Assembly: GCA_030531505.1 (NCBI GenBank)
Contig: JAUNNH010000004.1
Coordinates: 71,584-135,583 of the forward strand
Source: Eubacteriales bacterium
GTDB taxonomy: Bacteria > Bacillota > Clostridia > Oscillospirales > Oscillospiraceae
Reading direction: 5' to 3'
DNA length: 64,000 bases
Shown here in pieces: positions 17,762 through 49,970 of this stretch. A program made the position numbers and the translations under genes. Position 1 is the stretch's first letter, and each line of letters begins with the position of its first letter. The notes beneath the pieces were generated by a model. It searched no databases, had not been told where the DNA came from, and saw nothing but the letters and a program-made list of their open reading frames with translations.

Positions 17762-18595
17762 ATGGGAAAGCACCTGTTTTTGACCGAAAAACGGAAAATC
17801 CCCGTCGGGGATCACAGCATCCGGCTTCTGATCCTCCGCCCGCTGGAGCGGCGTGAGGAGCGCGTGCCGGGCGTGCTGTGGGTCCACGGCGGCGGCTATC
17901 AGTCGGGCTCCGCGAAGGACATCTTCGCGACCCGGGCCCTCTCGCTCGTGGTCAAGTTCGGCGCGGTGCTGGTCGCGCCGGATTACCGCCTCTCCAAAAA
18001 ACACCCCTACCCGGCGGCCCTCCACGACTGCTGGGCGGCGCTGCTGTATCTCAAGGAGCACGCGGAGGAGCTGGGCGTGCGTTCGGATCAGCTCATGGTG
18101 GGCGGCGAGAGCGCGGGCGGCGGCATGGCCGCGGCGCTGTGCATGCTGGCGCGCGACCGGGGCGAGGTGAACATCGCCTTCCAGATGCCGCTCTACCCCA
18201 TGCTTGACGACCGGGACACCCCCTCCTCGGCGGACAACCACGCGCCGAACTGGAACAGCAAGCGCAACCGCAAGGCCTGGAAGCGCTATCTGCGCGCAGC
18301 CTACGGGACGGATCTGGTCCCTTGCTATGCGGCGCCGGCCCGCTGTACGGATTACCGCGGCCTGCCGCCCTGCTATACCTTTGTGGGCGATATCGAGCCG
18401 TTTTACTGCGAAACGGTGGAATACGTCCGCCGTCTGCAGGAAGCGGGCGTGCGCGCGGCCGTCGACGTCTACCCGGGCTGGTTCCATGCCTATGATCTCT
18501 TCTTCCCGGCCAAAAAGATCGTGCGCGAGGCGATCGCGCGCTTCGAGGAACAGGTGCAGTACGCCATGGAGCACGACTTCGCCCCGCAGCGGTAG
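17762..18595 (+). CDS. alpha/beta hydrolase, esterase/lipase (HSL family)
   Basis: The oxyanion motif WVHGGGY and the nucleophile elbow GESAGG are present. Confidence 0.85.
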   Translation: MGKHLFLTEKRKIPVGDHSIRLLILRPLERREERVPGVLWVHGGGYQSGSAKDIFATRALSLVVKFGAVLVAPDYRLSKKHPYPAALHDCWAALLYLKEHAEELGVRSDQLMVGGESAGGGMAAALCMLARDRGEVNIAFQMPLYPMLDDRDTPSSADNHAPNWNSKRNRKAWKRYLRAAYGTDLVPCYAAPARCTDYRGLPPCYTFVGDIEPFYCETVEYVRRLQEAGVRAAVDVYPGWFHAYDLFFPAKKIVREAIARFEEQVQYAMEHDFAPQR

Positions 18596-18648
18596 GCGGG
18601 GACGATGCGGCGAAGCAGGAAGAAAGCCGCCTGAAGAGGCAAAAGAAT

Positions 18649-18693
18649 AACGACCATAGCGAGCTTCTTGCCCGATATGGTCGTTTTCTTTTT
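18649..18693 (+). terminator. rho-independent terminator
   Basis: The stem aacgaccata/tatggtcgtt is followed by ttttcttttt. Confidence 0.6.
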
Positions 18694-18757
18694 GCTTCCA
18701 GGAACAGGTGAAAAACTGCCCGCAACAGTCTCTGGAATCAGAAACCGCTGCGGGTTC

Positions 18758-19039
18758 TGGCGGAGATGGAGAGATTCGGCTGCATGTTTCGCAGGGGAGC
18801 GGCGCGGGGATACCGGGTACTGTTCGGTGCGAAACATAGAGGAGTTCACCAGTGTGCGCACTGGTGAACGCACAGGCCCCCGGCCTGTGCGGACATGATT
18901 CGAATCTCTGTCCGCTTCGTCCAAAGAGCGCAGCCCCGACTTGCATGGGGCGGGCCGGGAGGGGATTGTGTATTCCCTCCCGGCAAATCGAGCGAAGCGG
19001 ATAGACCCGGCGCACAGCGCCGGCTCTCCATCTCCGCCA
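18758..19039. other. 282-bp highly structured element with 16-bp terminal inverted repeats copied from the tRNA-Ser 3' end (candidate tRNA-like ncRNA, MITE or att relic)
   Basis: 18758-18778 is identical to 19074-19094, and 19024-19039 is the inverted copy. The interior has multiple perfect hairpins (for example 18844-18854/18859-18869 and 18870-18878/18882-18890). See findings. Confidence 0.4.
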
Positions 19040-19043
19040 AAAG

Positions 19044-19073
19044 AAAAGCCCGCCTTTCGGCGGGTTTTTCTTT
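19044..19073. terminator. bidirectional terminator shared by tRNA-Ser and the neighbouring structured element
   Basis: The stem gcccgcc/ggcgggt has a tttc loop, with A-rich sequence on the left and T-rich on the right. It is the centre of a palindrome with arms of about 31 bp. Confidence 0.75.
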
Positions 19074-19165
19074 TGGCGGAGATGGAGAGATTCGAACTCT
19101 CGAGGAGCTTTTGACCCCTACACGATTTCCAATCGTGCGCGCTCGACCAACTACGCGACATCTCC
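19074..19165 (-). tRNA. tRNA-Ser (anticodon GGA), class II with long variable arm, CCA encoded
   Basis: The reverse complement folds as acceptor GGAGATG/CATCTCC, anticodon stem CACGA/TCGTG with loop TTGGAAA, a long variable arm, and T-arm GAGAG-TTCGAAT-CTCTC, ending GCCA. Confidence 0.93.
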
Positions 19166-19294
19166 GTGTGTTGCTCAAGATCTCTTCTGTTCACTTGTCA
19201 GCCCGCATATTATAATGCACAGGCGCGGCAAAAGTCAAGGAATATTTTTGTATTCCCGAAAAATACTAAGCGCATGAAAAAGGAGGGGAAAACG

Positions 19295-19738
19295 ATGGAT
19301 ATGACGCGGGAGGAATATCGGGAATACGCACGGCAGCGGGCACCGCGCTCACATGTGAAACGAAACGCCCTGCACGCCTTTCTGATGGGCGGCGCGATCT
19401 GCTGCCTCGGACAGTTCCTGATCGGGCTCTATACACGCTACGGCCTCGAAAAGGATGCGGCGGGCACGGCGGCCTCGATCACGCTGGTGCTGCTGGCGGC
19501 GCTGCTCACGGGGCTCGGCGTATACGACAAGCTGGCGAAGCTCGGCGGCGCGGGGACACTGGTGCCGATCACCGGCTTTGCCAACGCCGTTGCAGCTCCG
19601 GCACTCGAATTCAAGACCGAGGGGCTCATCACCGGGACGGCGGCGAAGATGTTTGTCATCGCGGGGCCGGTACTCGTCTACGGAGTGGGCAGCAGCGTGC
19701 TCTACGGCCTGCTGCTGGTGCTGCTCGCTCAGGCGTAG
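19295..19738 (+). CDS. spoVAC: stage V sporulation protein AC
   Basis: The sequence YARQRAP....NALHAFLMGGAICCLGQ... is typical of SpoVAC. The ATG at 19295 has an AGGAGGGG SD. Confidence 0.85.
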   Translation: MDMTREEYREYARQRAPRSHVKRNALHAFLMGGAICCLGQFLIGLYTRYGLEKDAAGTAASITLVLLAALLTGLGVYDKLAKLGGAGTLVPITGFANAVAAPALEFKTEGLITGTAAKMFVIAGPVLVYGVGSSVLYGLLLVLLAQA

Positions 19739-40269: not shown

Positions 40270-40345
<76 letters not shown>

Positions 40346-40347
40346 CT

Positions 40348-40383
40348 AAAAACACCGATTCTGATAAAGAATCGGTGTTTTTC
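40348..40383 (+). terminator. rho-independent terminator after tRNA-fMet
   Basis: aaaaacaccgattc/gaatcggtgttttt. Confidence 0.8.
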
Positions 40384-40433
40384 TGCATTATTCTGGCAAC
40401 TTTGTTTTTGGTAATATCGGATATGGCGCACAT

Positions 40434-40453
40434 TTGGCGCACAACCTCGATAA
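40434..40453 (+). repeat. candidate arm-type integrase binding sites (TGGCGCACA x2), copy near attL
   Basis: tggcgcacatttggcgcaca is identical to 48451-48470. Confidence 0.6.
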
Positions 40454-40498
40454 AAATCAGCGGTTACCGCTCCCGCTCCGGGAGTAGTAACCGCTTTT

Positions 40499-41881
40499 TC
40501 ATGCCCTGCGGAGGATAACGTCGGCGATGCTCTCCGCGGCCCGCTCGTCTGCCTGTTTGATAATATGGCTGTAAATGTCCGTGGTGGTAGAGACTTTTGC
40601 ATGGCCGAGGCGCTTGGAAACGGTCAGCGCGTCCGTGCCGTTGTAAATCAACAGCGAGGCCATCGTGTGCCGGAACTTATGAGGATGGATCGGCGGGAGA
40701 TCATATTTTCCTGCGAAGGAGCTGAGCCATTGCGTGACATTATCGGGATTCATAATCCCGCCGTCGTCACGAGTAAATACATAGTCCGTTTCAATCCAAC
40801 GATCGCCGTTCTTCACTTTCAGACCGTCATAATAGGCCCGATACAGTTTCAAAAGCTGGATGGTCTCAGTCGGTACTTTGATATAACGTGTTTCGCCGGT
40901 CTTGGTCGTGTCCTCGTAGACGCCGCTTTCTGCAGTGTATAGGAGCGCACGATCAATACGGAGTTGCTGGCTCTTCCAGTCAATGGCGTCCCAATGCAGG
41001 CCCATAATCTCACCACGGCGGCAGCCGGTTACGATCAGCAAGTGCGTGATGGTGCGCCACTTGATCGGCTCATTCTCTAAGCATTCCAGAATACGCGCCA
41101 GCTCCTCCGGCTGGAAGCAGTCGACCTCTGGCCGGTCGATCTTCGGCGGCGTGGCTCTGTGTGCGGGATTGTATTGGATCAGCATTTCCTTTTCTGCCTG
41201 GCTCATGATAGTGGAAATCAGGCGGTGGTGTTCAAGGATTGTTTTGGCCGAAAGCGGGCTGCTATCTTGGGACAGTTTGAAAAGACTTTCTGTTTTGTAT
41301 CCCAGTGCAGCGGCCAGCGTGTCCGCCGTAGCTTTTGAGACCGTTCTGCCGTGGATGGCCGGGGCAAAGGTCGAGGCTGCCATTCCGGAGGAGCGGGACA
41401 GCTCGGCCGCACTCAGCTTCTTTTCCTTCATCAATGCGGATATGTCCTTTTTTGGCGTAGCCTTGACGGCACAGATCCTCACGCCTTCCTCGCCCAAATT
41501 GGAATAGAACATATTAAGATGCTGCGGGCGAATATCAGCCAGTTTCAAATGACCGATTGCTGCGTTGATCCGTACCAGCAGCTCCCGGTATCTTTCGACG
41601 GTGCGCTGTTTTGTACCGTTACGCTTCTTCAGGTCGAGCACATACTCTGCATACTGCGCGAAGCTCTGGCGGTTGTCCGCGACAAAGCCCTGCTCGATCT
41701 GCTGCTCGAACTCAAAGGCGGCTTTCTGTACAGCCTTCTCGATCTGCCGCTCTGTCATGCCCGGCTCAGGTCGCCAGGTCTTGAAATGTCGGATCTGTTT
41801 CCCGTCTGTATTGCGCCCGCTCGTGACGGTGATTTTAAAGGAGACGCCGGTTTTCCCGTCAATCCTTTTGATGTTCGCCAT
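40499..41881 (-). CDS. tyrosine recombinase / phage integrase (element 1)
   Basis: The N-terminal SAM-like/arm-binding region is MANIKRIDGKTGVSFKITV. The catalytic region is HPHKFRHTMAS...LGHAKVSTTTDIYSH. The internal ATG is at 41879-41881. Confidence 0.9.
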   Translation of the reverse strand: MANIKRIDGKTGVSFKITVTSGRNTDGKQIRHFKTWRPEPGMTERQIEKAVQKAAFEFEQQIEQGFVADNRQSFAQYAEYVLDLKKRNGTKQRTVERYRELLVRINAAIGHLKLADIRPQHLNMFYSNLGEEGVRICAVKATPKKDISALMKEKKLSAAELSRSSGMAASTFAPAIHGRTVSKATADTLAAALGYKTESLFKLSQDSSPLSAKTILEHHRLISTIMSQAEKEMLIQYNPAHRATPPKIDRPEVDCFQPEELARILECLENEPIKWRTITHLLIVTGCRRGEIMGLHWDAIDWKSQQLRIDRALLYTAESGVYEDTTKTGETRYIKVPTETIQLLKLYRAYYDGLKVKNGDRWIETDYVFTRDDGGIMNPDNVTQWLSSFAGKYDLPPIHPHKFRHTMASLLIYNGTDALTVSKRLGHAKVSTTTDIYSHIIKQADERAAESIADVILRRA

Positions 41882-42614
41882 TTGCTTTCTCCGCCTCCCC
41901 GATTTCTCCCTCTGGATACCATAGCTCAAAGTCTTCATCCTTATCAATCGTCCACAATGACGCGGTGTCTATTCGACCGATTGATTCGAACTGCTTGATT
42001 GCATCATCTTCCATCCGGCCAACGACCTCGGCCAGAGCTTTGCTTATCTCTTCCTGTGCTTCCAGCAGGAAAAAGTCCTCTGCAGAAGATGCAGGAATCG
42101 TATAGGTGTTACCATTCCGAGAGATGGCGCTGATAATATTCTCGATCTCAATGTGCGATGGCTTTTCCTCGCTCGATGCGATTAGATGAGCTCTGGCAGC
42201 TTCAAGCACATATCCCGGAATTGCATCAAGCCCACTTTCCCCAATCAGAACAATCGAATCAAAGAGCTTTCTATAAAATCCTACTCTCAAATCATCAGGG
42301 TCATACCCACTAAAATGCAGGAAATTCACAGTCGAAGGGGAAAGGCCAGTGAATTCGCAAACTGATCTGATAGTCTGATCAACTGCACGCTCATCAGACA
42401 ACCCGATGAGCCAATCAGAAGGAATTTTGCATTTCTTACAAATCTGGAACATGGTTTCGATATCAGGGATTCGGTCGCCATTCAGGTAAAAGCCTACAGT
42501 TTGCCGAGATAAACCAAGCAGCTTAGCAAATTCAGTAATGTTTCCATTACTTTGCTCTTTCAGTAACTCATTGAATCTATCCCTAAAGACCGGTACTCTC
42601 GCATTGTTCTGCAT
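41859..42614 (-). CDS. XRE-family HTH regulator with C-terminal extension (cI-like repressor candidate)
   Basis: The HTH is ITEFAKLLGLSRQTVGFYLNGDRIPDIETMFQICKKCKI. It overlaps the int start, so the two form an operon. Confidence 0.8.
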   Translation of the reverse strand: MQNNARVPVFRDRFNELLKEQSNGNITEFAKLLGLSRQTVGFYLNGDRIPDIETMFQICKKCKIPSDWLIGLSDERAVDQTIRSVCEFTGLSPSTVNFLHFSGYDPDDLRVGFYRKLFDSIVLIGESGLDAIPGYVLEAARAHLIASSEEKPSHIEIENIISAISRNGNTYTIPASSAEDFFLLEAQEEISKALAEVVGRMEDDAIKQFESIGRIDTASLWTIDKDEDFELWYPEGEIGEAEKANGEHQKD

Positions 42615-42680
42615 TTGTTCACTCTCCTACCCATCAAAAGCTCTGAATGTTAACGGACGTTGTTTTATTTGCTCGGCCTA

Positions 42681-42709
42681 TTGACTCAAGGCCGGTTGCC
42701 GGTTACAAT
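42681..42709 (+). promoter_or_regulatory. near-consensus sigma-A promoter for rightward genes of element 1
   Basis: TTGACT (42681-42686), a 17-nt spacer and TACAAT (42704-42709), in the divergent intergenic region. Confidence 0.6.
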
Positions 42710-42798
42710 CCTCACAGGTGCTCTTCTTGTTGTCGTTGCTGATTATAGCAGATTACAAGTGAAGCGTCAACAACAATTTTGTGAAAGGGTTGATAATC

Positions 42799-42996
42799 AT
42801 GGCAAACGATGCGATTCGAAACAGGGCAAAAGAGGTCGGAGTCAAGCTCTGGGAAGTGGCTGATTTCTTTAAGATGGCCGACAGCACTTTTTCTCGGCAG
42901 ATGCGGCGAGAACTCCCGTATGATAAACAGCAGCATATCCTTAGTGCAATCGACCGTATTTCTGAAATCAAGGCGGAGCAAAAACAGGGGGTGTGA
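42799..42996 (+). CDS. small HTH protein (cro-like)
   Basis: MANDAIRNRAKEVGVKLWEVADFFKMADSTFSRQMRREL resembles short regulators of Firmicutes phages/ICEs. This is recall-based. Confidence 0.55.
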   Translation: MANDAIRNRAKEVGVKLWEVADFFKMADSTFSRQMRRELPYDKQQHILSAIDRISEIKAEQKQGV

Positions 42997-42999
42997 TCC

Positions 43000-43227
43000 G
43001 TGAGGATGCGCACAATCGATCAAGCCGCGAGCTGGTCGCAGGAGACAGATCCAGATACAGCTCTGACAAAGACCGCACTGCGTCGCCTGGTGGTTACGGG
43101 GAAGCTTCCCAGCGTCCGGATCGGGCAAAAATACCTAGTATCGCTGGAAGCGCTGGAAGACTACTTGCGCGGGGCTGTTCCGCTTCCGTTGCCGGCTGTG
43201 TCCGAAATTCGGAGGATTGATCTATGA
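43000..43227 (+). CDS. excisionase-family DNA-binding protein (HTH_17-like)
   Basis: ...LTKTALRRLVVTGKLPSVRIGQKYLVSLEALEDYL is present. The GTG start follows a GGGGG SD. Confidence 0.7.
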   Translation: MRMRTIDQAASWSQETDPDTALTKTALRRLVVTGKLPSVRIGQKYLVSLEALEDYLRGAVPLPLPAVSEIRRIDL

Positions 43228-43375
43228 GGGTGACGAAAAGAACCGCTCCCGACGTTGACCATCGAGAGCGGCACGGGAAATCGAATCAGCGGTCAGGCTA
43301 TCGGAGATCCCGCTCACGATATTATCACAAGGACGGACAGCCGGCAAGTGGTTTCTGCTCTGTTGATGGCGGGCG

Positions 43376-43747
43376 GTGGTAAATGTGCCACGACATAAGG
43401 CCGCCAGAAATTGCGAGATTCGCCCCTGGCTGTCAGCTCGTGTGGATTGTTCCGAAGGGCGCTTTTTGCAGGTAGGGAACAGTTTGTTGCTCTGCGAAGC
43501 ATTCCAAAGGCTTTCTTCCGGCGCTCAGATTCTTTACTTGGAAATGTCTTTGGAAGCCGGTGGACGGCGGGAGTTTGTTTTTCCACTTTCTGCGGCAAAA
43601 AAATACGGAGTTCCGCCTCGATCATTCCGGCGCTATGTGGACGAGCTGATTCAGGCAGGGTTCATCGAGAAGACGAGCTTGAAAAACCTTCGGCAGCCGA
43701 ACGAGTATTGCTTTTCTTTCCGTTGGAAAGAGAAACAACCGCCTTAA
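43376..43747 (+). CDS. putative replication/initiator-type winged-helix protein
   Basis: The pattern FLQVGNSLLLCEAFQRLSSGAQILYLEMSL...FRRYVDELIQAGFIEKT resembles the N-terminal domains of RepA_N/DnaD-type initiators. Iterons follow immediately downstream. The start codon is uncertain. Confidence 0.45.
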   Translation: MVNVPRHKAARNCEIRPWLSARVDCSEGRFLQVGNSLLLCEAFQRLSSGAQILYLEMSLEAGGRREFVFPLSAAKKYGVPPRSFRRYVDELIQAGFIEKTSLKNLRQPNEYCFSFRWKEKQPP

Positions 43748-43780
43748 AAGAATCCATTCCCCTGGCGACATGTAGTATAT

Positions 43781-43920
43781 CTGTGCCATTTTGGCACAGT
43801 GGCGGGAGGATAAAAGACTCACTGGTTATGCCATTTTGGCACAGTGTAACGGGAAAAGGATCATTGCACTGTGCCATTTTGGCACAAGATAGGGCCCTGC
43901 ACTATGCCAGATTGGCACAG
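43781..43920. repeat. four iterons of palindrome TGCCA-N3-TGGCA (candidate ori or operator array)
   Basis: The sites are at 43784-43796, 43829-43841, 43872-43884 and 43905-43917. Two are extended to the perfect 19-bp palindrome ctgtgccattttggcacag. Confidence 0.75.
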
Positions 43921-43940
43921 CCAAATGAAGGAGGAACAAT

Positions 43941-44189
43941 ATGGTTACAGAGGAACAGGCCGAGCAAGAGATTGACGCTTTGAACAAATCGCCTTTCGTC
44001 CAGCTCGCCCGAAAAGCACAGCGTAATCGGTATATGGTTCAGCAGCGCCTCTATCAGCTCCGATGGTTGGAGAAACACGGACGCGAACTGGCCGACGCCG
44101 GAATCACTATGGACATACTGCGTGCCCAGGCAGCATCTCTGCGGGCCGATATGAAGGATGATGATCCGGACGAGGACGCGACGTGGTAA
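43941..44189 (+). CDS. hypothetical protein
   Basis: An AAGGAGG SD is present and the coding composition is consistent with its neighbours. Confidence 0.5.
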   Translation: MVTEEQAEQEIDALNKSPFVQLARKAQRNRYMVQQRLYQLRWLEKHGRELADAGITMDILRAQAASLRADMKDDDPDEDATW

Positions 44190-44234
44190 TGGAAGCGAGC
44201 ACTTCCGGGCGCTTTTGAGCGCTGAGGAGGAAAA

Positions 44235-44594
44235 ATGACGAATAGGCAACAGAGGGCATTTGCTGCACTGATCCGCAGCCCTACCACGCGGGAGGCCGCA
44301 GCAGAGGCAAAGATCGGATATTCCACTCTGAGAAAGTGGATGACCTCAGATGACGATTTTCGTAAAGCATATCAGGAAGAGCTATCACAGCTTGTAGAAG
44401 CGGCCGGGCGCTCTATCCGGGCTGGAATGACCGATGCAGCGGAGGCTCTGCGCAGGATTGCCACAGATCCAGACGCGCCGAGTTCTTCACGCGTCCAGGC
44501 GGCGAAAGCAATTCTTGATTCCGGTTTGCGGATCGTCGAGATCACCGATGTTCTTACTAGGTTGGAGGCGTTGGAAGATGCACAGGGAGATTAA
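44235..44594 (+). CDS. HTH protein resembling phage small-terminase/packaging N-terminal domain
   Basis: NRQQRAFAALIRSPTTREAAAEAKIGYSTLRKWM... and ...SSRVQAAKAILD follow a pattern recalled from TerS-like proteins. Confidence 0.45.
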   Translation: MTNRQQRAFAALIRSPTTREAAAEAKIGYSTLRKWMTSDDDFRKAYQEELSQLVEAAGRSIRAGMTDAAEALRRIATDPDAPSSSRVQAAKAILDSGLRIVEITDVLTRLEALEDAQGD

Positions 44595-44597
44595 TAG

Positions 44598-44849
44598 ATG
44601 AAGTATTCGAAGCGTCTGCGCAAGCTGGAGCATACAAAGTCACCCGTGCTTAGCCGGGAAGAACAGGAGCGGCGGCTGTCGGCATTTATTGAAGTTGAAA
44701 CGATGGTCACGGGCCGACCGCCGACAGAGGCCGAGATCGAGGAAGAACGGCAGCGCCTTAACCAGCCGCCCCGGCGCGTGAAGCCGGAAGAGATCCGCGC
44801 GATTGCGGAAGAAATCGAAAAAGTGTTATATTCTGAAAGGAGATCATAA
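44598..44849 (+). CDS. hypothetical protein
   Basis: It is tightly packed in the rightward operon, with 3-nt gaps. Confidence 0.5.
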   Translation: MKYSKRLRKLEHTKSPVLSREEQERRLSAFIEVETMVTGRPPTEAEIEEERQRLNQPPRRVKPEEIRAIAEEIEKVLYSERRS

Positions 44850-44851
44850 AC

Positions 44852-45547
44852 ATGGAAAGAGCCGATAAAGCATACTACGAAGCGATCGAGGAACTTGATG
44901 CAGCTGTTAAGGCCGCGAGAAGAAAGCACAAGGAAGTCATTGGCAAGCTGAAAGCCGCTGAGGGCAAAGTAAACGAAAGCCGGAACCTTTCCGACAGATA
45001 TACGGAGCAGCACCTGCAGAAAGAGATGGCCAAAATCGCACTGGATAAGATCAAGCGCGAGATCCGGCCCCAGATTTCGACCATCTGGCAAGACTTTGAC
45101 ACTACTGCCGCGCAGATCCGTCGGAAACTTGTGGCAGATCTGGAAGAAGCCGATACTTACCGTGCGTCGGACATGGACATGGCGGCTGTTGCCCTGTTGA
45201 ACAGCGGTACGATGAGGCTGAAAGATTTTCAGAACATGGCCACCGAGTTTTCCGAAAATCCGACTGTTCTGGCACTCCTTCGCAAGACAGCAAGGGAAGC
45301 CGCCGAAAAGATGACCGACGAGGAGCGCGGTCAGGAGAGAGGTTTGCTGATGGACATGGCAAACAACGCTCGAACCGACAGCGAAAAGCTGTTGAAGGGT
45401 TACGATGATCTGAACTACATCGCCCGCATGTTCTCTGGGCGGGATTCAAACGGCAATTTCGAGAGTGGGCTTTCGGGTGCTTCGCTGGATGCTTGGGAAC
45501 GCGCAACAGAGGGCGTGATTCCCAGAGACGGTAGCGAAAGCGAATAA
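44852..45547 (+). CDS. hypothetical coiled-coil protein
   Basis: It is in the same operon; no motif was recognised. Confidence 0.5.
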   Translation: MERADKAYYEAIEELDAAVKAARRKHKEVIGKLKAAEGKVNESRNLSDRYTEQHLQKEMAKIALDKIKREIRPQISTIWQDFDTTAAQIRRKLVADLEEADTYRASDMDMAAVALLNSGTMRLKDFQNMATEFSENPTVLALLRKTAREAAEKMTDEERGQERGLLMDMANNARTDSEKLLKGYDDLNYIARMFSGRDSNGNFESGLSGASLDAWERATEGVIPRDGSESE

Positions 45548-45614
45548 GTATCAAACGCGTAAAGTGATACAGGGCCGCGTAGATCCGCGGCCCTTTCCAC
45601 ATTGGAGGGCAACA

Positions 45615-46013
45615 ATGACACTGGAAGAGCTGAACACGCATCTTGCAGCGCTCCAGACTCTGGAGACTGCCCGTGAAGTCCTCGCATCGTTGCGGGCGGC
45701 AGCGCTGAGCGCGTCCAGGCTGGACGCAACGCCACGCACTCCCGGCGTTGGGGATAGAACGGCGGCGCTGGCCATGAAGATATCACAGCAGAAGGATATC
45801 GTTGCAAGCCTTGAGCGCACGGTTGATGCTTCCAGTGTGACCGTCAAAGAGTTTATAGATTCCGTGACCGACAATCGGCTTAATGTGATTCTATATCTGC
45901 GTTTCGTCTGCGGCTATGAGTGGGCCGAGGTCGCGGAGATCATCGGCGGCAGAAATACCGAGAACGCCGTCAAATCTTTAGTTTATCGCTTCTTTCGCTC
46001 ACAAGCCCTCTGA
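45615..46013 (+). CDS. sigma-70 region-4-like transcriptional activator (DUF1492 / ArpU-RinA-like)
   Basis: The C-terminus RLNVILYLRFVCGYEWAEVAEIIGGRNTENAVKSLVYRFF is a region-4 HTH. The ATG at 45615 has a GGAGGG SD. Confidence 0.65.
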   Translation: MTLEELNTHLAALQTLETAREVLASLRAAALSASRLDATPRTPGVGDRTAALAMKISQQKDIVASLERTVDASSVTVKEFIDSVTDNRLNVILYLRFVCGYEWAEVAEIIGGRNTENAVKSLVYRFFRSQAL

Positions 46014-46163
46014 GCGCGTTTCTGCGCATCTTTGCAGCAGCGGGGCAGAGACACCCCCAGCGCAGCAGGCGCAATCTGGAAGCGTTGCAACGGCTTTTCC
46101 GTAGAAAACAGCCATGAATACGAATCAGGGACTGCAAACTGCAAGCCCCTGATCTTTTGCCAT

Positions 46164-46754
46164 TTATTTGTCAGCCGACATTTGATCGATCCGGCGTTTT
46201 TCGTCCTCTTCAAGTGTGAAGAAAAACGCTTTTACCTGATCACCCCTCAACTCCAAACGCTCTACCATATCGTTGATGGTTTTAAGGCTCATAGATGAAA
46301 GGTTATTCAAATATCGCCGGAGTGTTGACGGCGCAATGTGCAGCGCGGCAGCGAACGCCTTATATGTGCCATACTTTTCTTTTATCCTGGCACAAAGCGC
46401 GGTGTGATCGAATTGTATATGCTTGCTCTTGGCTGGGGCGGTCGGCTCCGGCTCCCGTGCGTCCGGTTCTGCTGGGGGTTCGATCTGCAGGGCCTTTTCT
46501 ATGGCCTCGACGTAATCAAAATACTGCTGCTGCGTGTGCAGCTTCCCCTCTCTGCAATCCTGCATAAATGCGCTGGCTAATTCCTTTGTCGCTGGCCAAC
46601 TTTCGAGGGTTTCGCCATCCGGGATGGCTTTCATGCAAAGGATAAGCCGGAGGGCGTAATACTTTTCCTTCCTGTTCATCTTGGAAAGCATGTCAGTAAA
46701 TTCTGTTTCAAGATCTCTGTCTGCTGCGCTGTTTGTTTCGTTCATTTTTATCAT
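46164..46754 (-). CDS. protein with C-terminal XRE-like HTH
   Basis: ALCARIKEKYGTYKAFAAALHIAPSTLRRYLNN is present. Confidence 0.55.
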   Translation of the reverse strand: MIKMNETNSAADRDLETEFTDMLSKMNRKEKYYALRLILCMKAIPDGETLESWPATKELASAFMQDCREGKLHTQQQYFDYVEAIEKALQIEPPAEPDAREPEPTAPAKSKHIQFDHTALCARIKEKYGTYKAFAAALHIAPSTLRRYLNNLSSMSLKTINDMVERLELRGDQVKAFFFTLEEDEKRRIDQMSADK

Positions 46755-46834
46755 CCTTTCTTGAATTGAGGGGTATACTCGGCATTAGCAGCAACGGTAC
46801 GCCCCTTGTGGCTGAGCAATTCCTTCTTCATTTG

Positions 46835-47089
46835 TTACGGCGCGGGTTGTCTCCCTTCCAAAGCGTAAACAAGGGCCTGCACGTCCTCCCGCACATGGGC
46901 CATATAATCAGCGATTCCCCGGGCCATTTCTGCGGCGCTCACGTCGGGGCTGTCCTTCTCTCTCTCCGCGAGAATATCAAGCATCCCCTCGACGGAGTAA
47001 AGACGTTGAAAGATGGTCTCTTTATCTGGCATAATTTGTCCTTTCCGCGGTCTATCCCAGCTGTCATGATATAGTGGATTCGTTTCCAC
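46835..47089 (-). CDS. hypothetical protein
   Basis: An ORF of reasonable composition upstream of the HTH gene on the same strand. Confidence 0.4.
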   Translation of the reverse strand: METNPLYHDSWDRPRKGQIMPDKETIFQRLYSVEGMLDILAEREKDSPDVSAAEMARGIADYMAHVREDVQALVYALEGRQPAP

Positions 47090-47236
47090 TTACCCAAAGA
47101 ATAATATATCGTACCCGATATATCAAGCTGGAATAATCAACAAAAAGAAAGGTGGCTATTTGACACTTTTATCTATTGTCCCCGATAGGCGTTTTTTGAT
47201 ATGATAATACATAACTACGGAGAGGATGGTGATTCT

Positions 47237-47425
47237 ATGACGGCAACAAAGGCCCAGCAGCGGGCTGTAAACAAATACATGAAAGAAAACTATGACGAGA
47301 TCAAGGTTAGAACCGAGAAAGGGAAGAAAGCCAAGATCAAGGCCCACGCCGAAAGCCGGGGCGAGAGCGTCAATTCGTTTATTAATCGGGCCATAGATGA
47401 GACGATGGAAAAGGACCAGCATTAA
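47237..47425 (+). CDS. ribbon-helix-helix (CopG/Arc-like) protein
   Basis: MTATKAQQRAVNKYMKENYDEIKVRTEKGKKAKIKAHAESRGESVNSFINRAI is a typical RHH antitoxin/repressor layout. The ATG at 47237 has a GGAGAGGA SD. Confidence 0.6.
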   Translation: MTATKAQQRAVNKYMKENYDEIKVRTEKGKKAKIKAHAESRGESVNSFINRAIDETMEKDQH

Positions 47426-47474
47426 GTGGAAGGTTGCAATATTAATAAATTTTTAGTTTTGATAATGTAACAGC

Positions 47475-47502
47475 AAAAGGCAGCTGATAACAGCTGCCTT
47501 TT
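47475..47502. terminator. bidirectional terminator between RHH and NYN genes
   Basis: aaaaggcagctg/cagctgcctttt with an ataa loop. Confidence 0.8.
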
Positions 47503-47517
47503 GTTGTTCTTGTGAGT

Positions 47518-48207
47518 TTATGGACCGGATGAAATAGGTTGATACATCAAATCTGTAAAGCTTTCGATTCCATCAACATGCTCCTGCATATTACGTTTTG
47601 GAAATTGCTTCATAGGATCAAGGAGAACATCAATACCACTCTTTCTAGCCATCTTAACAACAGGCAAAAAGTCGCTATCTCCTGCGATGAGAACAATTTG
47701 ATCAACCAGATGATCATTTGCTAGAGATGCAACATCAAGGCCTATCCTCATGTCAACACCCTTTTGTTTTACGTCGAGCCGAAAGTCGTTTTCTGTTAAT
47801 GTTGCAATTTGCTTTGTACCAGAAAGAAGATCGTTGAGTACAGTTTCTTTTAAGACAAAAGATGCTGTTGATTCTGCTAACTCGCCTCTTCGTAAGGCAA
47901 CTTTCCGTTTTTCTACGAGATATTTGAAAAAATCATTTGACCAGCGCGTACCAGGCAGAGAAGAATAATCAATATCGTTTTTTGTGAGTGGATGCTTAAC
48001 TGTCCTTGTCATAGGAGGACAATCATAATAAAATATACGGTATAAATCGCGCGGCTCTGATGGCTCAGTGATATGCAATAAGCAATAAGAATATAATTCG
48101 GATGCTCTTTCCAATGGGGTTTTATTTCCCCACAAGTCGCGAGATCTTACTCGATAATATCCCCCATCTACCAGAATTGCAGTTTTTCTAGTAAGCTTGT
48201 TCTCCAT
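47518..48207 (-). CDS. NYN-domain (LabA/PIN-like) putative RNase
   Basis: The conserved acidic motifs ILVDGGY, KGVDMRIGLD and IAGDSDFLP are present, and the gene is clearly AT-rich. Confidence 0.8.
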   Translation of the reverse strand: MENKLTRKTAILVDGGYYRVRSRDLWGNKTPLERASELYSYCLLHITEPSEPRDLYRIFYYDCPPMTRTVKHPLTKNDIDYSSLPGTRWSNDFFKYLVEKRKVALRRGELAESTASFVLKETVLNDLLSGTKQIATLTENDFRLDVKQKGVDMRIGLDVASLANDHLVDQIVLIAGDSDFLPVVKMARKSGIDVLLDPMKQFPKRNMQEHVDGIESFTDLMYQPISSGP

Positions 48208-48450
48208 AGATTATTTCTCTCTCTCAATAAAATAAACCCTTGAGGTTGGATCATCCCGAAAGATGGGAGTCCTTGCCCAAGGGTTCAATAGATAATGTAA
48301 CAAGGAACTCTTGCTACTTGTATATATTATTCCCGGCCAGGTAAAAAGTCAACATGTTTTTTTGTTCACAAGTTGTTCATAATCAGCAGGGGCTCTCTTC
48401 AATGACAATTAACTGTGGACAGCAGAGAAGCAGACAGTTGGGGAATTGTT

Positions 48451-48483
48451 TGGCGCACATTTGGCGCACACTCGTGCGCCAAA
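48451..48483 (+). repeat. candidate arm-type integrase sites near attR (two direct, one inverted TTTGGCGCA)
   Basis: tggcgcacatttggcgcaca is followed by the inverted tgcgccaaa. Confidence 0.6.
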
Positions 48484-48587
48484 TGATCTGAGGCGGTGAA
48501 AAACTATGAGAAGGCTGTTCCGGAAAAACCGCATGAAATCTGAGCATTTCCGAAGTTGTGAAAAGACGTGAAAAGCACAAGCGACAA

Positions 48588-48632
48588 CTCATAACCCGGA
48601 GGTCGTTGGTTCGAATCCTTCCCCCGCAACCA
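48588..48632 (+). repeat. attR of element 1 / attL of element 2: partial tRNA-fMet (3' 45 nt)
   Basis: It is identical to 40301-40345 and lacks the tRNA 5' half. Confidence 0.9.
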
Positions 48633-48794: not shown

Positions 48795-49970
48795 TTATTC
48801 TGCGTTGGATTGAAGAGATTTGATGTATTGCCCCATGCGGTTGGCACTCTCTTTTTTCATGCCCGGCGTGGAGTGCGCATAGGTGCTGAGCGTGAAGGAC
48901 GCAGTGGCATGACCGAGATTTTCCTGCACGGTCTTGATGTCGTCCCCGGCACGGAGGCTGTTCACTGCAAAGGTATGGCGGAGCGAGTGGAAGCGCAGCT
49001 CGTCAAAGCCGTTTTCCTTCATCAGCCGCTTGAAGCGGTTGTACAGAGTCTTGTTGCTGACGTAGCGTCCCAGCTCATTGGTGAACACCAGCTGATCCGG
49101 ATTCGACCAGGCACTTCCCGCGGCTTCTGCCCAGGCATTCTGTTTTGCCTGCTGGCGGCGTAAAGCGTCCATGACTTCATCGGCTACGGTCAGCGTTCGG
49201 ATCTTATCGTTCTTCAGGCTCGCAAACACATATTCCTTTGTCTTGCGAAGCAGCGTGTGCTGCTTGTTGATCAGGAGCGTGTTGTTCTCGAAGTCCACAC
49301 AGTCCCAGGTCAGGCCCAGCACTTCACCCTGCCGCAGGCCGGTGAAGACGGTCACGAAGTAGATCAGCTCGTCCGGCTCGCCTTTGATGACGGTCAGAAA
49401 CCGGAGCATCTCGTCGTCAGCCAGCGTCTCGACCTTCGTCTTCTCCACGCGGGGAACGATCACCGCATCCAGCGGGTTCGTGCGGATGTATCCCAGCCGC
49501 TTGGCCTGCTCCATCGCCCTGTGCAGCGCACCGTGGAGATTCTTGATCGTCTTGGGGGAGAGTCCCTTTTCGTTCAGCAGCTCGTTGTACAGATGCTGGA
49601 CCATGTGAGGGGTCAGTTTGCCGAGCTGGATCTGGCCGAGATTCGGCTTGAGGTGGGTGCGCACATGGCTGTCGTAGATGCTTCGCGTAGAGGGCTTTAG
49701 GTTTACGGTATAATCATTTATCCAGATATCCAGCCAGGTGCCGAGCTTCATGCTGCAGGGGTCGGTGTAGATCCCCTCGTCGATCTCAGTCGTGACCTTC
49801 GCCAGTTTCTGCCGAACCTCTTTTTGCGAATCTCCATAGATAGATCGCTGGATCTGCTTGCCGGTTTTGGGACTGAAGCCGACAGAGTAGCGGGCCTCCC
49901 ATCGCCCATCCGAGCGTTTTCGGATCGTACCTGCGCCTTTTGCGTTCTTTGTTGATTTGCTGTTTGACAA
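48795..49970 (-). CDS. tyrosine recombinase / integrase (element 2)
   Basis: The N-terminus is GTIRKRSDGRWEARYSVGF and the catalytic region is RFHSLRHTFAV...LGHATASFTLSTYAH. Confidence 0.9.
   Translation of the reverse strand: MSNSKSTKNAKGAGTIRKRSDGRWEARYSVGFSPKTGKQIQRSIYGDSQKEVRQKLAKVTTEIDEGIYTDPCSMKLGTWLDIWINDYTVNLKPSTRSIYDSHVRTHLKPNLGQIQLGKLTPHMVQHLYNELLNEKGLSPKTIKNLHGALHRAMEQAKRLGYIRTNPLDAVIVPRVEKTKVETLADDEMLRFLTVIKGEPDELIYFVTVFTGLRQGEVLGLTWDCVDFENNTLLINKQHTLLRKTKEYVFASLKNDKIRTLTVADEVMDALRRQQAKQNAWAEAAGSAWSNPDQLVFTNELGRYVSNKTLYNRFKRLMKENGFDELRFHSLRHTFAVNSLRAGDDIKTVQENLGHATASFTLSTYAHSTPGMKKESANRMGQYIKSLQSNAE

What the first reader, a model, noticed from the sequence alone, without database searches (positions are those of the whole stretch)
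18758..19094. 282-bp highly structured element built from tRNA-Ser 3'-end copies, next to tRNA-Ser
Seen in the sequence:
- The last 21 nt of the minus-strand tRNA-Ser gene (19074-19094, tggcggagatggagagattcg) recur as a direct repeat at 18758-18778.
- Sixteen of those nucleotides recur inverted at 19024-19039.
- Thus 18758-19039 has perfect 16-bp terminal inverted repeats.
- As RNA in either orientation, the ends form GGAGAUGGAGAG/CUCUCCAUCUCC followed by GCCA. This is the acceptor stem plus T stem of tRNA-Ser stacked as a 12-bp minihelix with discriminator and CCA.
- The interior is packed with perfect hairpins:
  - 18784-18792/18829-18837
  - 18844-18854/18859-18869
  - 18870-18878/18882-18890
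  - ggaca/tgtcc, enclosing a TTCGAATC T-loop-like sequence
  - ccgcttcg/cgaagcgg, enclosing two further hairpins
  - ccggcg/cgccgg
- The element and the tRNA converge on one palindromic terminator (19044-19073), and a second terminator-like hairpin lies at 18716-18757.

I found no signature of tmRNA, RNase P, SRP or 6S RNA.

Hypotheses:
- (a) A tRNA-like ncRNA that may be processed by RNase P or the CCA-adding enzyme.
- (b) A MITE-like element with tRNA-derived ends.
- (c) A decayed att duplication from an element once integrated in tRNA-Ser.
Basis: partly seen in the sequence, partly recalled or inferred. Interest (0 to 1): 0.65.

Follow-up and report, generated by a model that had tools for sequence, protein, structure and literature searches.

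The report
Hairpin repeat inserted beside tRNA genes
The structured 282-bp segment next to tRNA-Ser is one copy of a previously undescribed small non-coding repeat that sits just past the 3' end of many different tRNA genes in rumen Oscillospiraceae and always carries end-pieces copied from the neighbouring tRNA; it looks like a tiny mobile DNA element, not a tRNA-like RNA gene.

Summary
tRNA-Ser(GGA) lies at 19074-19165 (-). Its last 21 nt recur directly at 18758-18778 and 16 nt recur inverted at 19024-19039. The interior is hairpin-rich (fold z = -12.6).

The segment is composite. Bases 18758-18909 plus 19024-19039 are one member of a repeat family. Bases 18910-19023 are a second, unrelated small repeat inserted into it with a 4-bp CTCT duplication.

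I found about 40 family copies in some 20 rumen Oscillospiraceae MAGs. In 27 of 40, a convergent tRNA gene ends 28-45 nt beyond the copy. Eight tRNA species are involved: Ser-GGA, Ser-TGA, Arg-ACG, Arg-CCT, Gln, Ala, Thr and Lys.

Every copy has the same plan:
- rc of local tRNA positions 56-76
- three covarying hairpins
- an inverted, decayed copy of the same tRNA end
- a terminator, then the tRNA

Related tRNA-Ser loci lack the element, and tandem, truncated and mosaic copies exist. A genuine integrase island uses the same T-loop fragment.

The hairpins are almost purely Watson-Crick with no strand asymmetry. There is no own promoter and no Rfam match.

Best reading: a miniature, non-autonomous element integrated at the tRNA T-loop attachment site. 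How it moves, and how the inverted arm arises, is unresolved. An RNA role is not excluded.

The parts
18716..18757 (-). Outer terminator-like hairpin (term0). It follows the displaced tRNA fragment in the tRNA's own direction.
   Evidence: minus-strand stem 18754-18719, 16 pairs, tail CAGTTTTTCA. In other loci copy A is likewise preceded by a terminator hairpin.
18758..18778 (-). Copy A: direct repeat of the last 21 nt of tRNA-Ser (tRNA positions 56-76, T-loop to CCA). This is the displaced tRNA fragment, equivalent to an attR core.
   Evidence: (D1). In 22 family copies A differs from the tRNA end by a mean of 2.5 of 21 nt, with 8 copies at 0.
18779..18785 (+). Conserved junction box (GCTGCAT here; CTTGCAT in most copies).
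   Evidence: Alignment A1, columns 22-28; G25 C26 A27 T28 are invariant.
18784..18837 (.). Hairpin P0 (10-bp stem). This copy has the long-loop variant also seen in L022, L040 and L062.
   Evidence: I11. In the family P0 is 96% paired, with 10 of 13 pairs changed on both sides. The long-loop variant aligns.
18844..18869 (.). Hairpin A (11-bp stem, loop TGCG).
   Evidence: I9. In the family, 6 of 11 pairs are changed on both sides.
18869..18891 (.). Hairpin B (10-bp stem, loop CCC).
   Evidence: I12. In the family it is 99.5% paired, with 5 of 9 pairs changed on both sides.
18889..18906 (+). Family box GCGGACATGATTCGAATC. It contains a T-loop-like palindrome GATTCGAATC.
   Evidence: Single exact match in the window. 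The genome-contig scan gave 54 stretches, about 37 in rumen Oscillospiraceae MAGs, the rest being about the number of chance matches I estimated for an 18-mer.
18899..18909 (+). Copy C, 5' part: inverted copy of tRNA-Ser positions 54-64 (TTCGAATCTCT).
   Evidence: I10: 18899-18909 complementary to 19086-19096.
18910..19023 (.). Nested insertion of a second small repeat (module X, 114 bp). It is flanked by a CTCT duplication (18906-18909 / 19024-19027) and has its own internal inverted repeats and hairpins.
   Evidence: The family copies closest to this one run straight from TTCGAATCTCTCC into the rest of arm C. A related module sits between element and tRNA in L009. Other contigs carry 18943-19003 in different contexts.
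19024..19039 (+). Copy C, 3' part: CTCTCCATCTCCGCCA (tRNA positions 61-76, inverted).
19040..19073 (.). Inner bidirectional terminator (term1). Together with copy C and the tRNA end it forms a 31-nt-arm palindrome.
   Evidence: (I1). The same C-terminator-tRNA palindrome occurs in the other copies.
19074..19165 (-). tRNA-Ser(GGA) gene. Its last 21 nt (19074-19094) are copy D.
   Evidence: 57.4 bits.
19209..19238 (-). Promoter-like site of tRNA-Ser (TTGACT-18-TATAAT, 11 of 12). It is the only promoter-like site in 18550-19300.

Best explanation
The segment is a copy of a small (about 150-190 bp), non-coding, hairpin-rich repeat family specific to the 3' end of tRNA genes in rumen Oscillospiraceae. 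I read it as a miniature, non-autonomous integrative element sitting in the T-loop attachment site of the tRNA gene.

Shown:
- The intact tRNA (copy D) and a displaced 21-nt 3' fragment (copy A, positions 56-76) bracket the element in direct orientation, as for tRNA-integrated islands.
- The element lies between them. Beside the tRNA it carries a terminator and an inverted, usually decayed, copy of the same tRNA end (copy C).
- The interior is three hairpins kept by compensatory changes.
- Copies occur at eight tRNA species, in tandem, truncated and as mosaics.
- Related tRNA-Ser loci lack the element.
- The window copy was later hit by a second small repeat (18910-19023).

Inferred:
- It is moved in trans by a tyrosine integrase that crosses over in the T-loop. 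Such integrases exist in this clade and leave the same fragment.
- The element supplies the replacement tRNA 3' end plus terminator.
- The hairpins, including the A/C stem that reconstitutes a duplex copy of the target, act in a single-stranded (folded DNA) recombination intermediate, as in integron attC sites or CTX-type phage attachment sites.
- Recombination between copies shuffles the cores among tRNA types.
For: - Family and position. An 18-mer from the core gave 54 stretches, about 37 in some 20 rumen Oscillospiraceae MAGs and up to 5 per MAG. Covariance model R1 finds 40 copies; 27 have a convergent tRNA 3' end 28-45 nt beyond the model end.
- Target range. The tRNAs are Ser-GGA, Ser-TGA, Arg-ACG, Arg-CCT, Gln-CTG, Ala-CGC, Thr-GGT and Lys-TTT. 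All have the T-loop TTCGAATC.
- Arms match the local tRNA in every copy, and the boundary is always at position 55/56.
- A versus D averages 2.5 mismatches of 21. C versus the tRNA end averages 4.9 edits. A is closer in 17 of 22 copies.
- Presence or absence. tRNA-Ser-spoVAC loci L059, L067 and L070 lack the element. L060, L062, L076, L098 and the window have it. In L067/L070 the hairpin that precedes copy A in L060/L062/L044 abuts the tRNA directly.
- Same crossover used by a real island. L143 has the 23-nt fragment, then an 8.2-kb island with a tyrosine integrase (PF00589, 4.4e-19), then an intact tRNA-Ser.
- Established knowledge: islands in tRNA genes are bracketed by the regenerated gene and its displaced fragment, and T-stem sites are common (PMC4383910). 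Integrase-less elements that keep attL and attR are known as CIMEs (PMC5704250).
- Tandem copies in L029 and L032, a second nearby copy in L047, a copy interrupted inside hairpin A in L044, truncated copies, and a mosaic pair in L062.
- Structure. 82.5% of cells are paired against 72.3% in shuffles (0 of 500 reach it). Covariation is 0.323 against 0.140. Slid controls give 33-46%.
- DNA-like signature. In the three hairpins there are only 7 G-T cells against 4 A-C cells in about 700. Mean folding energy is equal on both strands with RNA and with DNA parameters.
- No Rfam family matches. There is no + strand promoter. No integrase homologue (tblastn with the L143 integrase) lies next to typical copies.
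Against: - No excised circle, empty-site read or recombinase partner was demonstrated.
- The empty-site comparison L059 versus L098 is not a clean indel. The polymorphism could reflect loss through the 21-nt repeats rather than gain.
- A carried-arm integrase model does not by itself explain how one core family came to sit at eight tRNA species with all three arms local. Cores do not cluster by tRNA type or by genome, so recombination between copies has to be invoked; it is supported only by the L062 mosaic.
- The inverted copy C has no counterpart in ordinary tRNA islands.
- In L032 two tandem copies with different cores share an identical C-terminator module. That hints at local duplication at insertion.
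- P0 often ends in GNRA-type loops and hairpin A in UNCG-type loops on the + strand, which is an RNA-like trait.
- Metatranscriptome contigs contain the element.
Confidence: 0.5

Rival explanations
1. It is a structured non-coding RNA family tied to its neighbouring tRNA. Either the + strand gives an sRNA whose first 21 nt are perfectly antisense to the tRNA 3' end. Or read-through from the tRNA promoter on the - strand gives a trailer RNA that ends in a second copy of the tRNA 3' end with CCA and folds into an acceptor/T-stem-like helix plus three hairpins. Such an RNA could titrate tRNA, or tRNA-end-binding enzymes or toxins, or be processed like a tRNA.
For: - Strong compensatory covariation in three hairpins.
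- GNRA-like loops in P0 and UNCG-like loops in hairpin A on the + strand. The conserved UC/CU mismatch of hairpin A becomes a tandem GA/AG on the - strand.
- Copy A is kept nearly identical to the tRNA end, beyond what pairing with C requires.
- Metatranscriptome contigs from several studies cover the element.
- One 161-nt contig bridges tRNA-Gln, the terminator and the element.
- A strong tRNA promoter lies upstream on the - strand.
Against: - No promoter on the + strand in the window, and the sequences upstream of copy A differ between loci, so no shared promoter is evident.
- A good terminator separates the tRNA from the element on the - strand.
- G-U pairs are at mismatch level and the strands fold equally well.
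- No Rfam, tRNA or tmRNA match.
- The outer (acceptor-like) half of the terminal helix is only about 38% Watson-Crick or wobble paired (92 of 230 cells) in the family.
- Tandem, truncated, mosaic and interrupted copies, and loci without it, are typical of selfish DNA.
- RNA-library contigs show about the same core-to-flank ratio as DNA metagenomes.
Confidence: 0.15
2. It is a mobile element that rebuilds its arms from the target at each insertion. For example, synthesis could be templated by the 3' end of the tRNA or tRNA gene up to the T-loop, followed by snap-back copying, or it could arise by a rolling-hairpin or long staggered-cut process. That would give direct and inverted copies of the local tRNA end around a portable core.
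For: - Arms are local at eight tRNA species, while cores do not cluster by tRNA type or by genome. Cross-type core identity reaches 89%.
- The window and L053 have perfect inverted arms.
- The arm boundaries are the mature tRNA 3' end and the T-loop in all copies.
- L068 has the same arm architecture around a largely different core.
- L032 tandem copies with different cores share an identical C-terminator module.
- From my own knowledge, not checked here: Neurospora mitochondrial retroplasmids integrate next to tRNA genes via hybrid cDNAs that copy tRNA 3' ends.
Against: - No reverse transcriptase or other enzyme is linked to the element.
- C is much more decayed than A in the same copies. That is unexpected if both arise together and evolve neutrally.
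- Arm boundaries equal to the tRNA end are also seen for the ordinary integrase island in L143.
- No near-identical cores were found at different tRNAs within one genome.
Confidence: 0.15
3. It is only the decayed remnant of a once larger island or prophage integrated in tRNA-Ser: attL and attR with internal debris, and no mobility or function of its own.
For: - Direct repeat of the T-loop class.
- Classical islands are present in the same window at tRNA-Met (45-nt fragment at 48588-48632, integrases at 40499-41947 and 48795-49970) and in relatives (L035, L143).
Against: - The A-to-box spacing is 91-94 nt in 21 of the 28 copies in which copy A was found (84-145 in the others), with conserved junction boxes in all of them, across eight tRNA species.
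- Compensatory changes maintain the hairpins.
- No coding remnants.
Confidence: 0.1

Closest known systems
Genomic islands integrated in tRNA genes by tyrosine integrases, T-stem/T-loop crossover class (Islander; Williams 2002)
   Same: An intact tRNA plus a displaced 3' fragment in direct orientation bracket the insert. The fragment starts in the T-loop and ends at CCA. The insert supplies a new tRNA 3' end and terminator. Tandem accretion occurs at one tRNA (PMC4383910).
   Different: Only about 150-190 bp with no integrase or any other gene. One conserved core sits at eight tRNA species. There is an extra inverted copy of the tRNA end, and the interior is made of covarying hairpins.
CIMEs (cis-mobilizable elements: integrase-less elements that keep attL and attR)
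   Same: No recombination genes, flanked by att-like repeats, found in tandem with islands at the same tRNA (PMC5704250).
   Different: CIMEs are decay products of individual ICEs or IMEs, with variable content. This is a multi-copy family of constant architecture with conserved secondary structure.
MITEs and other small bacterial interspersed repeats (REP/BIME, Correia, RUP, BOX)
   Same: Small, non-coding, multi-copy, intergenic and palindromic. Nested insertions occur.
   Different: The terminal inverted repeats are not family-wide; they equal the local tRNA end. The flanking duplication is 21 nt of tRNA. Insertion is confined to tRNA 3' ends. No partner IS is known.
Integron attC sites and CTX-type folded single-strand attachment sites
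   Same: The order core (D) - short cassette (terminator) - inverse core (C) - structured spacer - core (A). Cassette-like tandem arrays. Structure is conserved rather than sequence, and inner pairs are better kept than outer ones.
   Different: No integron integrase or Xer dependence was shown. The 'core' is 21-23 nt of a tRNA rather than 7 nt. This is a resemblance of layout only, not a tested mechanism.
tRNA-like RNAs (tmRNA tRNA-like domain, acceptor/T-arm minihelices, bacterial Y-RNA tRNA-like modules)
   Same: In the window copy the ends can form acceptor plus T-stem pairs followed by GCCA.
   Different: ARAGORN and Rfam report nothing. The 5' arm is the Watson-Crick complement of the 3' strand, with no closed T-loop. 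The acceptor part is decayed in most copies.

Membership tests
tRNA-integrated island / CIME (integrase-type att duplication) | Intact tRNA gene plus a displaced fragment of its 3' end in direct orientation at the far end of the insert | tested here: met
   21-24 nt direct repeat in the window. The same holds in 25 of 56 tRNAs examined across the loci, at 3 or fewer mismatches of 19.
tRNA-integrated island / CIME (integrase-type att duplication) | Fragment boundary at a canonical crossover sublocation (T-loop/T-stem or anticodon loop) | tested here: met
   The boundary is between tRNA positions 55 and 56 in all copies. The integrase island in L143 leaves the same 23-nt fragment.
tRNA-integrated island / CIME (integrase-type att duplication) | Integrase gene inside the element (island), or recognisable decayed island content (CIME) | tested here: not met
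   The element is 150-300 bp of hairpins. tblastn with the L143 integrase finds none adjacent to typical copies.
tRNA-integrated island / CIME (integrase-type att duplication) | Occupied and empty forms of the same site | tested here: inconclusive
   L059, L067 and L070 lack the element while L060, L062, L076, L098 and the window have it. The pairwise alignment is not a clean indel, and loss through the repeats is possible.
tRNA-integrated island / CIME (integrase-type att duplication) | Excision to a circle / attP junction | tested here: inconclusive
   Back-joined contigs (18999 to 18765) exist but fit tandem arrangements. The raw-read run X24 had no coverage.
MITE | Terminal inverted repeats shared by all copies and by a parent IS | tested here: not met
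   The terminal repeats differ between copies and equal the local tRNA end. Only ATTCG / CGAAT is common to all.
MITE | Short target-site duplication of fixed length | tested here: not met
   The flanking repeat is the 21-nt tRNA end. Only the nested module X shows a 4-bp duplication, CTCT.
MITE | Small, non-coding, multi-copy | tested here: met
   About 40 copies in the loci fetched and up to 5 per MAG. Only one copy lies in this 64-kb window.
Structured ncRNA / tRNA-like RNA | Match to a described RNA family or to tRNA/tmRNA models | tested here: not met
   Rfam at gathering and E-value thresholds finds only the real tRNA plus weak terminator-driven hits. ARAGORN finds nothing in the element.
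Structured ncRNA / tRNA-like RNA | Covariation that supports an RNA structure on one strand (G-U pairs, strand asymmetry) | tested here: inconclusive
   Covariation is strong. But G-U cells number 7 against 4 A-C cells in about 700, and the mean energy difference between strands is 0.3 kcal/mol. Loop motifs point to +, the tandem GA to -.
Structured ncRNA / tRNA-like RNA | Own promoter and terminator | tested here: not met
   No + strand promoter in 18550-18757. Upstream flanks are unrelated between copies. Only read-through from the tRNA promoter is possible.
Structured ncRNA / tRNA-like RNA | Discrete transcript | tested here: inconclusive
   Metatranscriptome contigs cover the element. They carry no strand information, the depths are low, and DNA carry-over is possible.
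Integron attC-like / folded single-strand recombination site | Inverse core and core flanking a structured spacer, with an integron or Xer recombinase acting on the folded strand | not testable with these tools
   The layout resembles it. No recombinase link could be tested.

The most novel reading that the evidence does not exclude
This is a new class of tRNA-targeting mobile element, or tRNA-matched RNA, whose portable hairpin core acquires both of its arms, one direct and one inverted, from the 3' end of whichever tRNA it lands beside. The arms could arise by synthesis templated on the tRNA or tRNA gene up to the T-loop, or by folded single-strand recombination. In effect this would be a natural system that reprograms its own target-matching arms.
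Probability: 0.25. Interest if true: 0.8.

Novelty: new variant of a known kind. Interest (0 to 1): 0.55.

Why it matters
- It defines a repeat family that is absent from Rfam 15 and that I did not find in the two papers I opened from three literature searches. The family marks the 3' flank of at least eight tRNA species in uncultured rumen Oscillospiraceae.
- For annotation, these copies can be mistaken for tRNA-like ncRNAs, for tiny 'islands' by programs that pair a tRNA with its fragments, or for att scars of lost prophages.
- For biology, the fact that every copy carries a direct and an inverted copy of its own tRNA's 3' end is not explained by ordinary transposition or by ordinary integrase chemistry. 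If the arms are made at insertion, the mechanism would be a new kind of target-templated, tRNA-specific integration.
- If the arms are carried along instead, the family is an unusually small and successful hitch-hiker on T-loop integrases. It would be a handle for studying how such integrases change tRNA specificity.

Tried and rejected
- Rfam at gathering and E-value thresholds: only the tRNA, plus sub-threshold hits driven by the terminator or palindrome.
- BLAST of 18700-19100 against phage and plasmid collections: no match.
- Other copies in the 64-kb window: none by pattern, BLAST or covariance model, including at tRNA-Met.
- G-U versus A-C counting and strand-wise folding energies to choose a strand: no asymmetry.
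- Viral contig scan: 10 stretches, only L143 real, and there the element is chromosomal flank next to an island.
- Raw DNA reads (X24), searched for circles or empty sites: the organism is not covered.
- Metatranscriptome contigs: the element is present, but with no strand information and a DNA-like core-to-flank ratio.
- Pairwise alignment of an empty (L059) and an occupied (L098) tRNA-Ser locus: flanks are only partly homologous, so there is no clean indel.
- tmRNA, tRNA-Sec, T-box and Y-RNA-like readings were considered from the sequence and dropped. There is no anticodon-type loop, no model match, and the 5' arm is simply the complement of the 3' arm.
- Palindrome growth from the terminator by template switching was rejected. 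The inverted arm is best conserved at its core-proximal end, not next to the terminator.
- Literature searches for a described tRNA-end MITE returned nothing specific.
Full report
**1. Observation**

The window holds tRNA-Ser(GGA) at 19074-19165 on the minus strand (ARAGORN; Rfam tRNA 57.4 bits).
- Its last 21 nt (read on +: TGGCGGAGATGGAGAGATTCG) recur at 18758-18778. With flanks this is a 24-nt repeat at 96%.
- Sixteen of those nt recur inverted at 19024-19039. This copy, the terminator and the tRNA end form one palindrome with 31-nt arms at 97%.
- The 15-mer GGCGGAGATGGAGAG has three exact copies here. With up to 2 mismatches the window holds 5 matches, against 0.53 expected.
- The 282 nt fold far better than shuffles: + strand -173.9 kcal/mol, z = -12.6; - strand -156.7, z = -8.9.

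**2. It is one member of a family that sits beside tRNA genes**

Contigs from bovine and sheep gut metagenomes laid on the region showed that 18845-18906 occurs in many different contexts, at about 8-36 times the depth of the bins on either side.

An exact scan of GTDB species genomes with GCGGACATGATTCGAATC (18889-18906) returned 54 stretches. About 37 are in some 20 rumen or gut Oscillospiraceae/'Ruminococcaceae' MAGs, with up to five per MAG. The remaining 17 or so are in unrelated phyla, which is about the number of chance matches I estimated for an 18-mer in a collection of this size.

A covariance model built from 23 full-length copies (A1, R1) finds 40 copies in the fetched Oscillospiraceae loci and one in the window (18758-18922, 106.6 bits). 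It finds none at the window's tRNA-Met.

In 27 of 40 copies a convergent tRNA gene ends 28-45 nt beyond the model. The exceptions are tandem copies, copies next to a tRNA fragment or another insert, and the window copy, which is 152 nt away. The tRNAs are Ser-GGA, Ser-TGA, Arg-ACG, Arg-CCT, Gln-CTG, Ala-CGC, Thr-GGT and Lys-TTT. All of them have the T-loop TTCGAATC.

**3. Anatomy**

Read convergent to the tRNA, every copy has these parts in order:
- an outer terminator-like hairpin
- copy A, the reverse complement of positions 56-76 of the local tRNA (it starts with TGG and ends with GATTCG)
- a CTTGCAT box
- hairpin P0
- hairpin A
- hairpin B
- the box GCGGACATGA
- copy C, which is TTCGAATC plus the T-stem and acceptor 3' strands of the local tRNA, often ending in GCCA
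- an inner bidirectional terminator
- the tRNA itself, whose 3' end is copy D

A and C therefore differ from copy to copy and track the neighbouring tRNA, while the core is shared. A is nearly intact: mean 2.5 mismatches of 21, 8 copies with 0, and most changes at the CCA end. C is decayed: mean edit distance 4.9. A is closer to the tRNA end in 17 of 22 copies. Only the window, L053 and L011 have a near-perfect C.

**4. The window copy is composite**

Related copies run TTCGAATCTCTCC... straight on into the rest of arm C. In the window, 114 nt (18910-19023) are inserted after TTCGAATCTCT and flanked by a CTCT duplication. That insert is a second small repeat:
- a related module sits between element and tRNA in L009
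- similar ends (...GAGCGAAGCGGAT) abut copy A in L009 and L028
- other contigs carry 18943-19003 in different contexts

**5. Structure**

On A1 the four-helix structure is 82.5% paired against 72.3% in shuffles (0 of 500 reach it). The covariation score is 0.323 against 0.140. Sliding the partners gives 33-46%.
- P0 is 96% paired, with 10 of 13 pairs changed on both sides.
- Hairpin B is 99.5% paired, 5 of 9.
- Hairpin A is 87% paired, 6 of 11.
- In the terminal A/C helix the inner 11 bp (TTCG plus T-stem) pair well and change with tRNA identity. The outer 10 bp are mostly unpaired.

The hairpins are almost strictly Watson-Crick: 7 G-T cells against 4 A-C cells in about 700. Mean folding energies of the two strands are equal with RNA parameters (-62.5 against -62.9) and with DNA parameters (-39.1 against -38.9).

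Loop motifs give mixed hints. On + there are GNRA-like loops in P0 and UNCG-like loops in hairpin A. On - a conserved UC/CU mismatch becomes a tandem GA/AG. The structure is clearly maintained, but nothing assigns it to one RNA strand.

**6. Evidence that it behaves as inserted or selfish DNA**

SpoVAC-anchored metagenome loci give related tRNA-Ser(GGA)-spoVAC sites.
- L059, L067 and L070 have no element.
- L060, L062, L076 and L098 have one. L068 has the same A-X-C-terminator-D layout around a largely different core.
- In L067/L070 a hairpin with loop AATTCTATCAAAATTA abuts the tRNA. In L060, L062 and L044 (and at Ser-TGA in L039 and L027) its homologue abuts copy A, with the element lying between it and the tRNA.
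- An L059/L098 alignment is only partly homologous upstream, so there is no textbook indel.

Other signs of inserted DNA: tandem copies (L029, L032), a second nearby copy (L047), a copy interrupted inside hairpin A (L044), truncated copies (L006, L019, L021, L036), and a mosaic pair in L062, where A plus P0 are about 97% identical but hairpins A and B differ.

Cores do not cluster by tRNA type or by MAG. For example, Arg-ACG L016 is 89% identical to Ser-TGA L039.

**7. Link to integrases**

In L143 a partial element and its terminator are followed by the 23-nt fragment TGGCGGAGATGGAGAGATTCGAA. Then comes an 8.2-kb island starting with a tyrosine integrase (PF00589, 4.4e-19; SAM-like domain 2.1e-13) and an HTH protein, then a new terminator and an intact tRNA-Ser(GGA).

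So integrases of this clade cross over at the same T-loop position that bounds copy A. This is the common 'T-stem' class of tRNA islands. In that class the regenerated gene and its displaced fragment mark the island ends (PMC4383910). Integrase-less elements that keep both att sites are known as CIMEs (PMC5704250).

L003 and L035 show later islands of the anticodon-loop class that pushed the element away from the tRNA. No integrase lies next to typical copies.

**8. Transcription**

- The only promoter-like site in 18550-19300 is that of tRNA-Ser, on the minus strand (TTGACT-18-TATAAT). There is none upstream of copy A on +.
- Flanks upstream of A are unrelated between copies.
- Both terminators read as terminators on the tRNA strand.
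- Metatranscriptome assemblies from several studies contain the element.
- On L013 the depth over the element (2-8) is similar to that over tRNA-Gln (7-13). One 161-nt contig bridges tRNA, terminator and element.
- Contigs carry no strand. The core-to-flank ratio resembles that of DNA metagenomes. DNA carry-over cannot be excluded.
- Read-through transcription from the tRNA promoter is plausible. A dedicated RNA gene is not shown.

**9. Interpretation**

Best-supported reading: a miniature, non-autonomous element occupying the T-loop attachment site of tRNA genes. Copies A and D are the att-type duplication. The element provides the replacement tRNA end and a terminator. The hairpins, including the A/C stem that rebuilds a duplex copy of the target, probably act in a folded single-strand intermediate. 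The order core - short cassette - inverse core - structured spacer - core recalls integron cassettes.

Which parts are shown and which inferred:
- Shown: the family, its position, the local arms, the covariation and the polymorphism.
- Inferred: the enzyme, the single-strand intermediate and the direction of events.

The weak point is how one core family reached eight tRNA species with all three arms local. Recombination between copies could do it (the L062 mosaic). So could a mechanism that rebuilds the arms from the target, which is the second rival. The RNA rival remains possible at lower probability.

**10. Comparison and novelty**

The element is not a member of any Rfam family. It is not a classical MITE, because it has no family-wide terminal repeats and no short duplication. 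It is not an island or an ordinary CIME, because it has no genes and a constant architecture.

It works most like a tRNA-site integrative element reduced to its attachment region. I rate it a new variant of a known kind, with an unresolved and potentially new insertion mechanism.

Noticed in passing
window 40270-48632: tRNA-Met(CAT) at 40270-40345 has an exact 45-nt displaced fragment (CTCATAACCC...CAACCA, anticodon loop to CCA) at 48588-48632. A tyrosine-integrase homologue lies next to the tRNA at 40499-41947 (-). This is a classical island of about 8.3 kb of the anticodon-loop class.
   Followed up: partly
window 48795-49970: A second tyrosine-integrase homologue (40% identical to the L143 integrase) lies directly beyond the displaced tRNA-Met fragment. 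This suggests a second element in tandem at the same site. Its far end was not located.
   Followed up: no
window 18910-19023; L009 4214-4275; upstream of copy A in L009, L028, L022, L042, L048: A second small repeat family (module X; shared motifs CTTTACACTAAAGATGCCG ... AAATCGRAGC..GCGAAGCGGRT plus a terminal GC hairpin). It tends to sit next to the tRNA-flank elements. In the window it is inserted with a 4-bp CTCT duplication.
   Followed up: partly
L039, L044, L060, L062, L067, L070 (upstream of copy A or of the tRNA): A shared island end at tRNA-Ser(GGA) and tRNA-Ser(TGA). It has direct repeats CTGTGAG(A/T)ACGATT, a hairpin with loop AATTCTATCAnAATTA and a conserved GTTTACATAAC..GCCGCTGCGGAA block. 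It probably represents the arm-type sites of another integrative element family.
   Followed up: no
L005 1885-2060: A copy in which the core box is fused at TTCGAA directly to the antisense tRNA-Arg body (CCCCTGACCTTCTGGTCCGTAG). It looks as if arm C and the terminator were lost by recombination between the two inverted TTCGAA palindromes.
   Followed up: no
L032 3009-3448: Two tandem copies with clearly different hairpins A and B share an almost identical arm C plus terminator module. This argues for local duplication or homogenisation of that module.
   Followed up: no
window 18636-18698: A separate 29-nt-arm imperfect palindrome (79% complementary) follows the alpha/beta-hydrolase-like ORF 17762-18595. 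It is probably that gene's bidirectional terminator, so there are two hairpins in a row before copy A.
   Followed up: no
runs X28 and X29 (window 18999 joined back to 18765): Contigs from libraries labelled metatranscriptomic join the end of module X directly to a partial copy A of a second, 85%-similar element. That is a tandem or alternative arrangement in a related strain, and a circular form cannot be excluded.
   Followed up: partly
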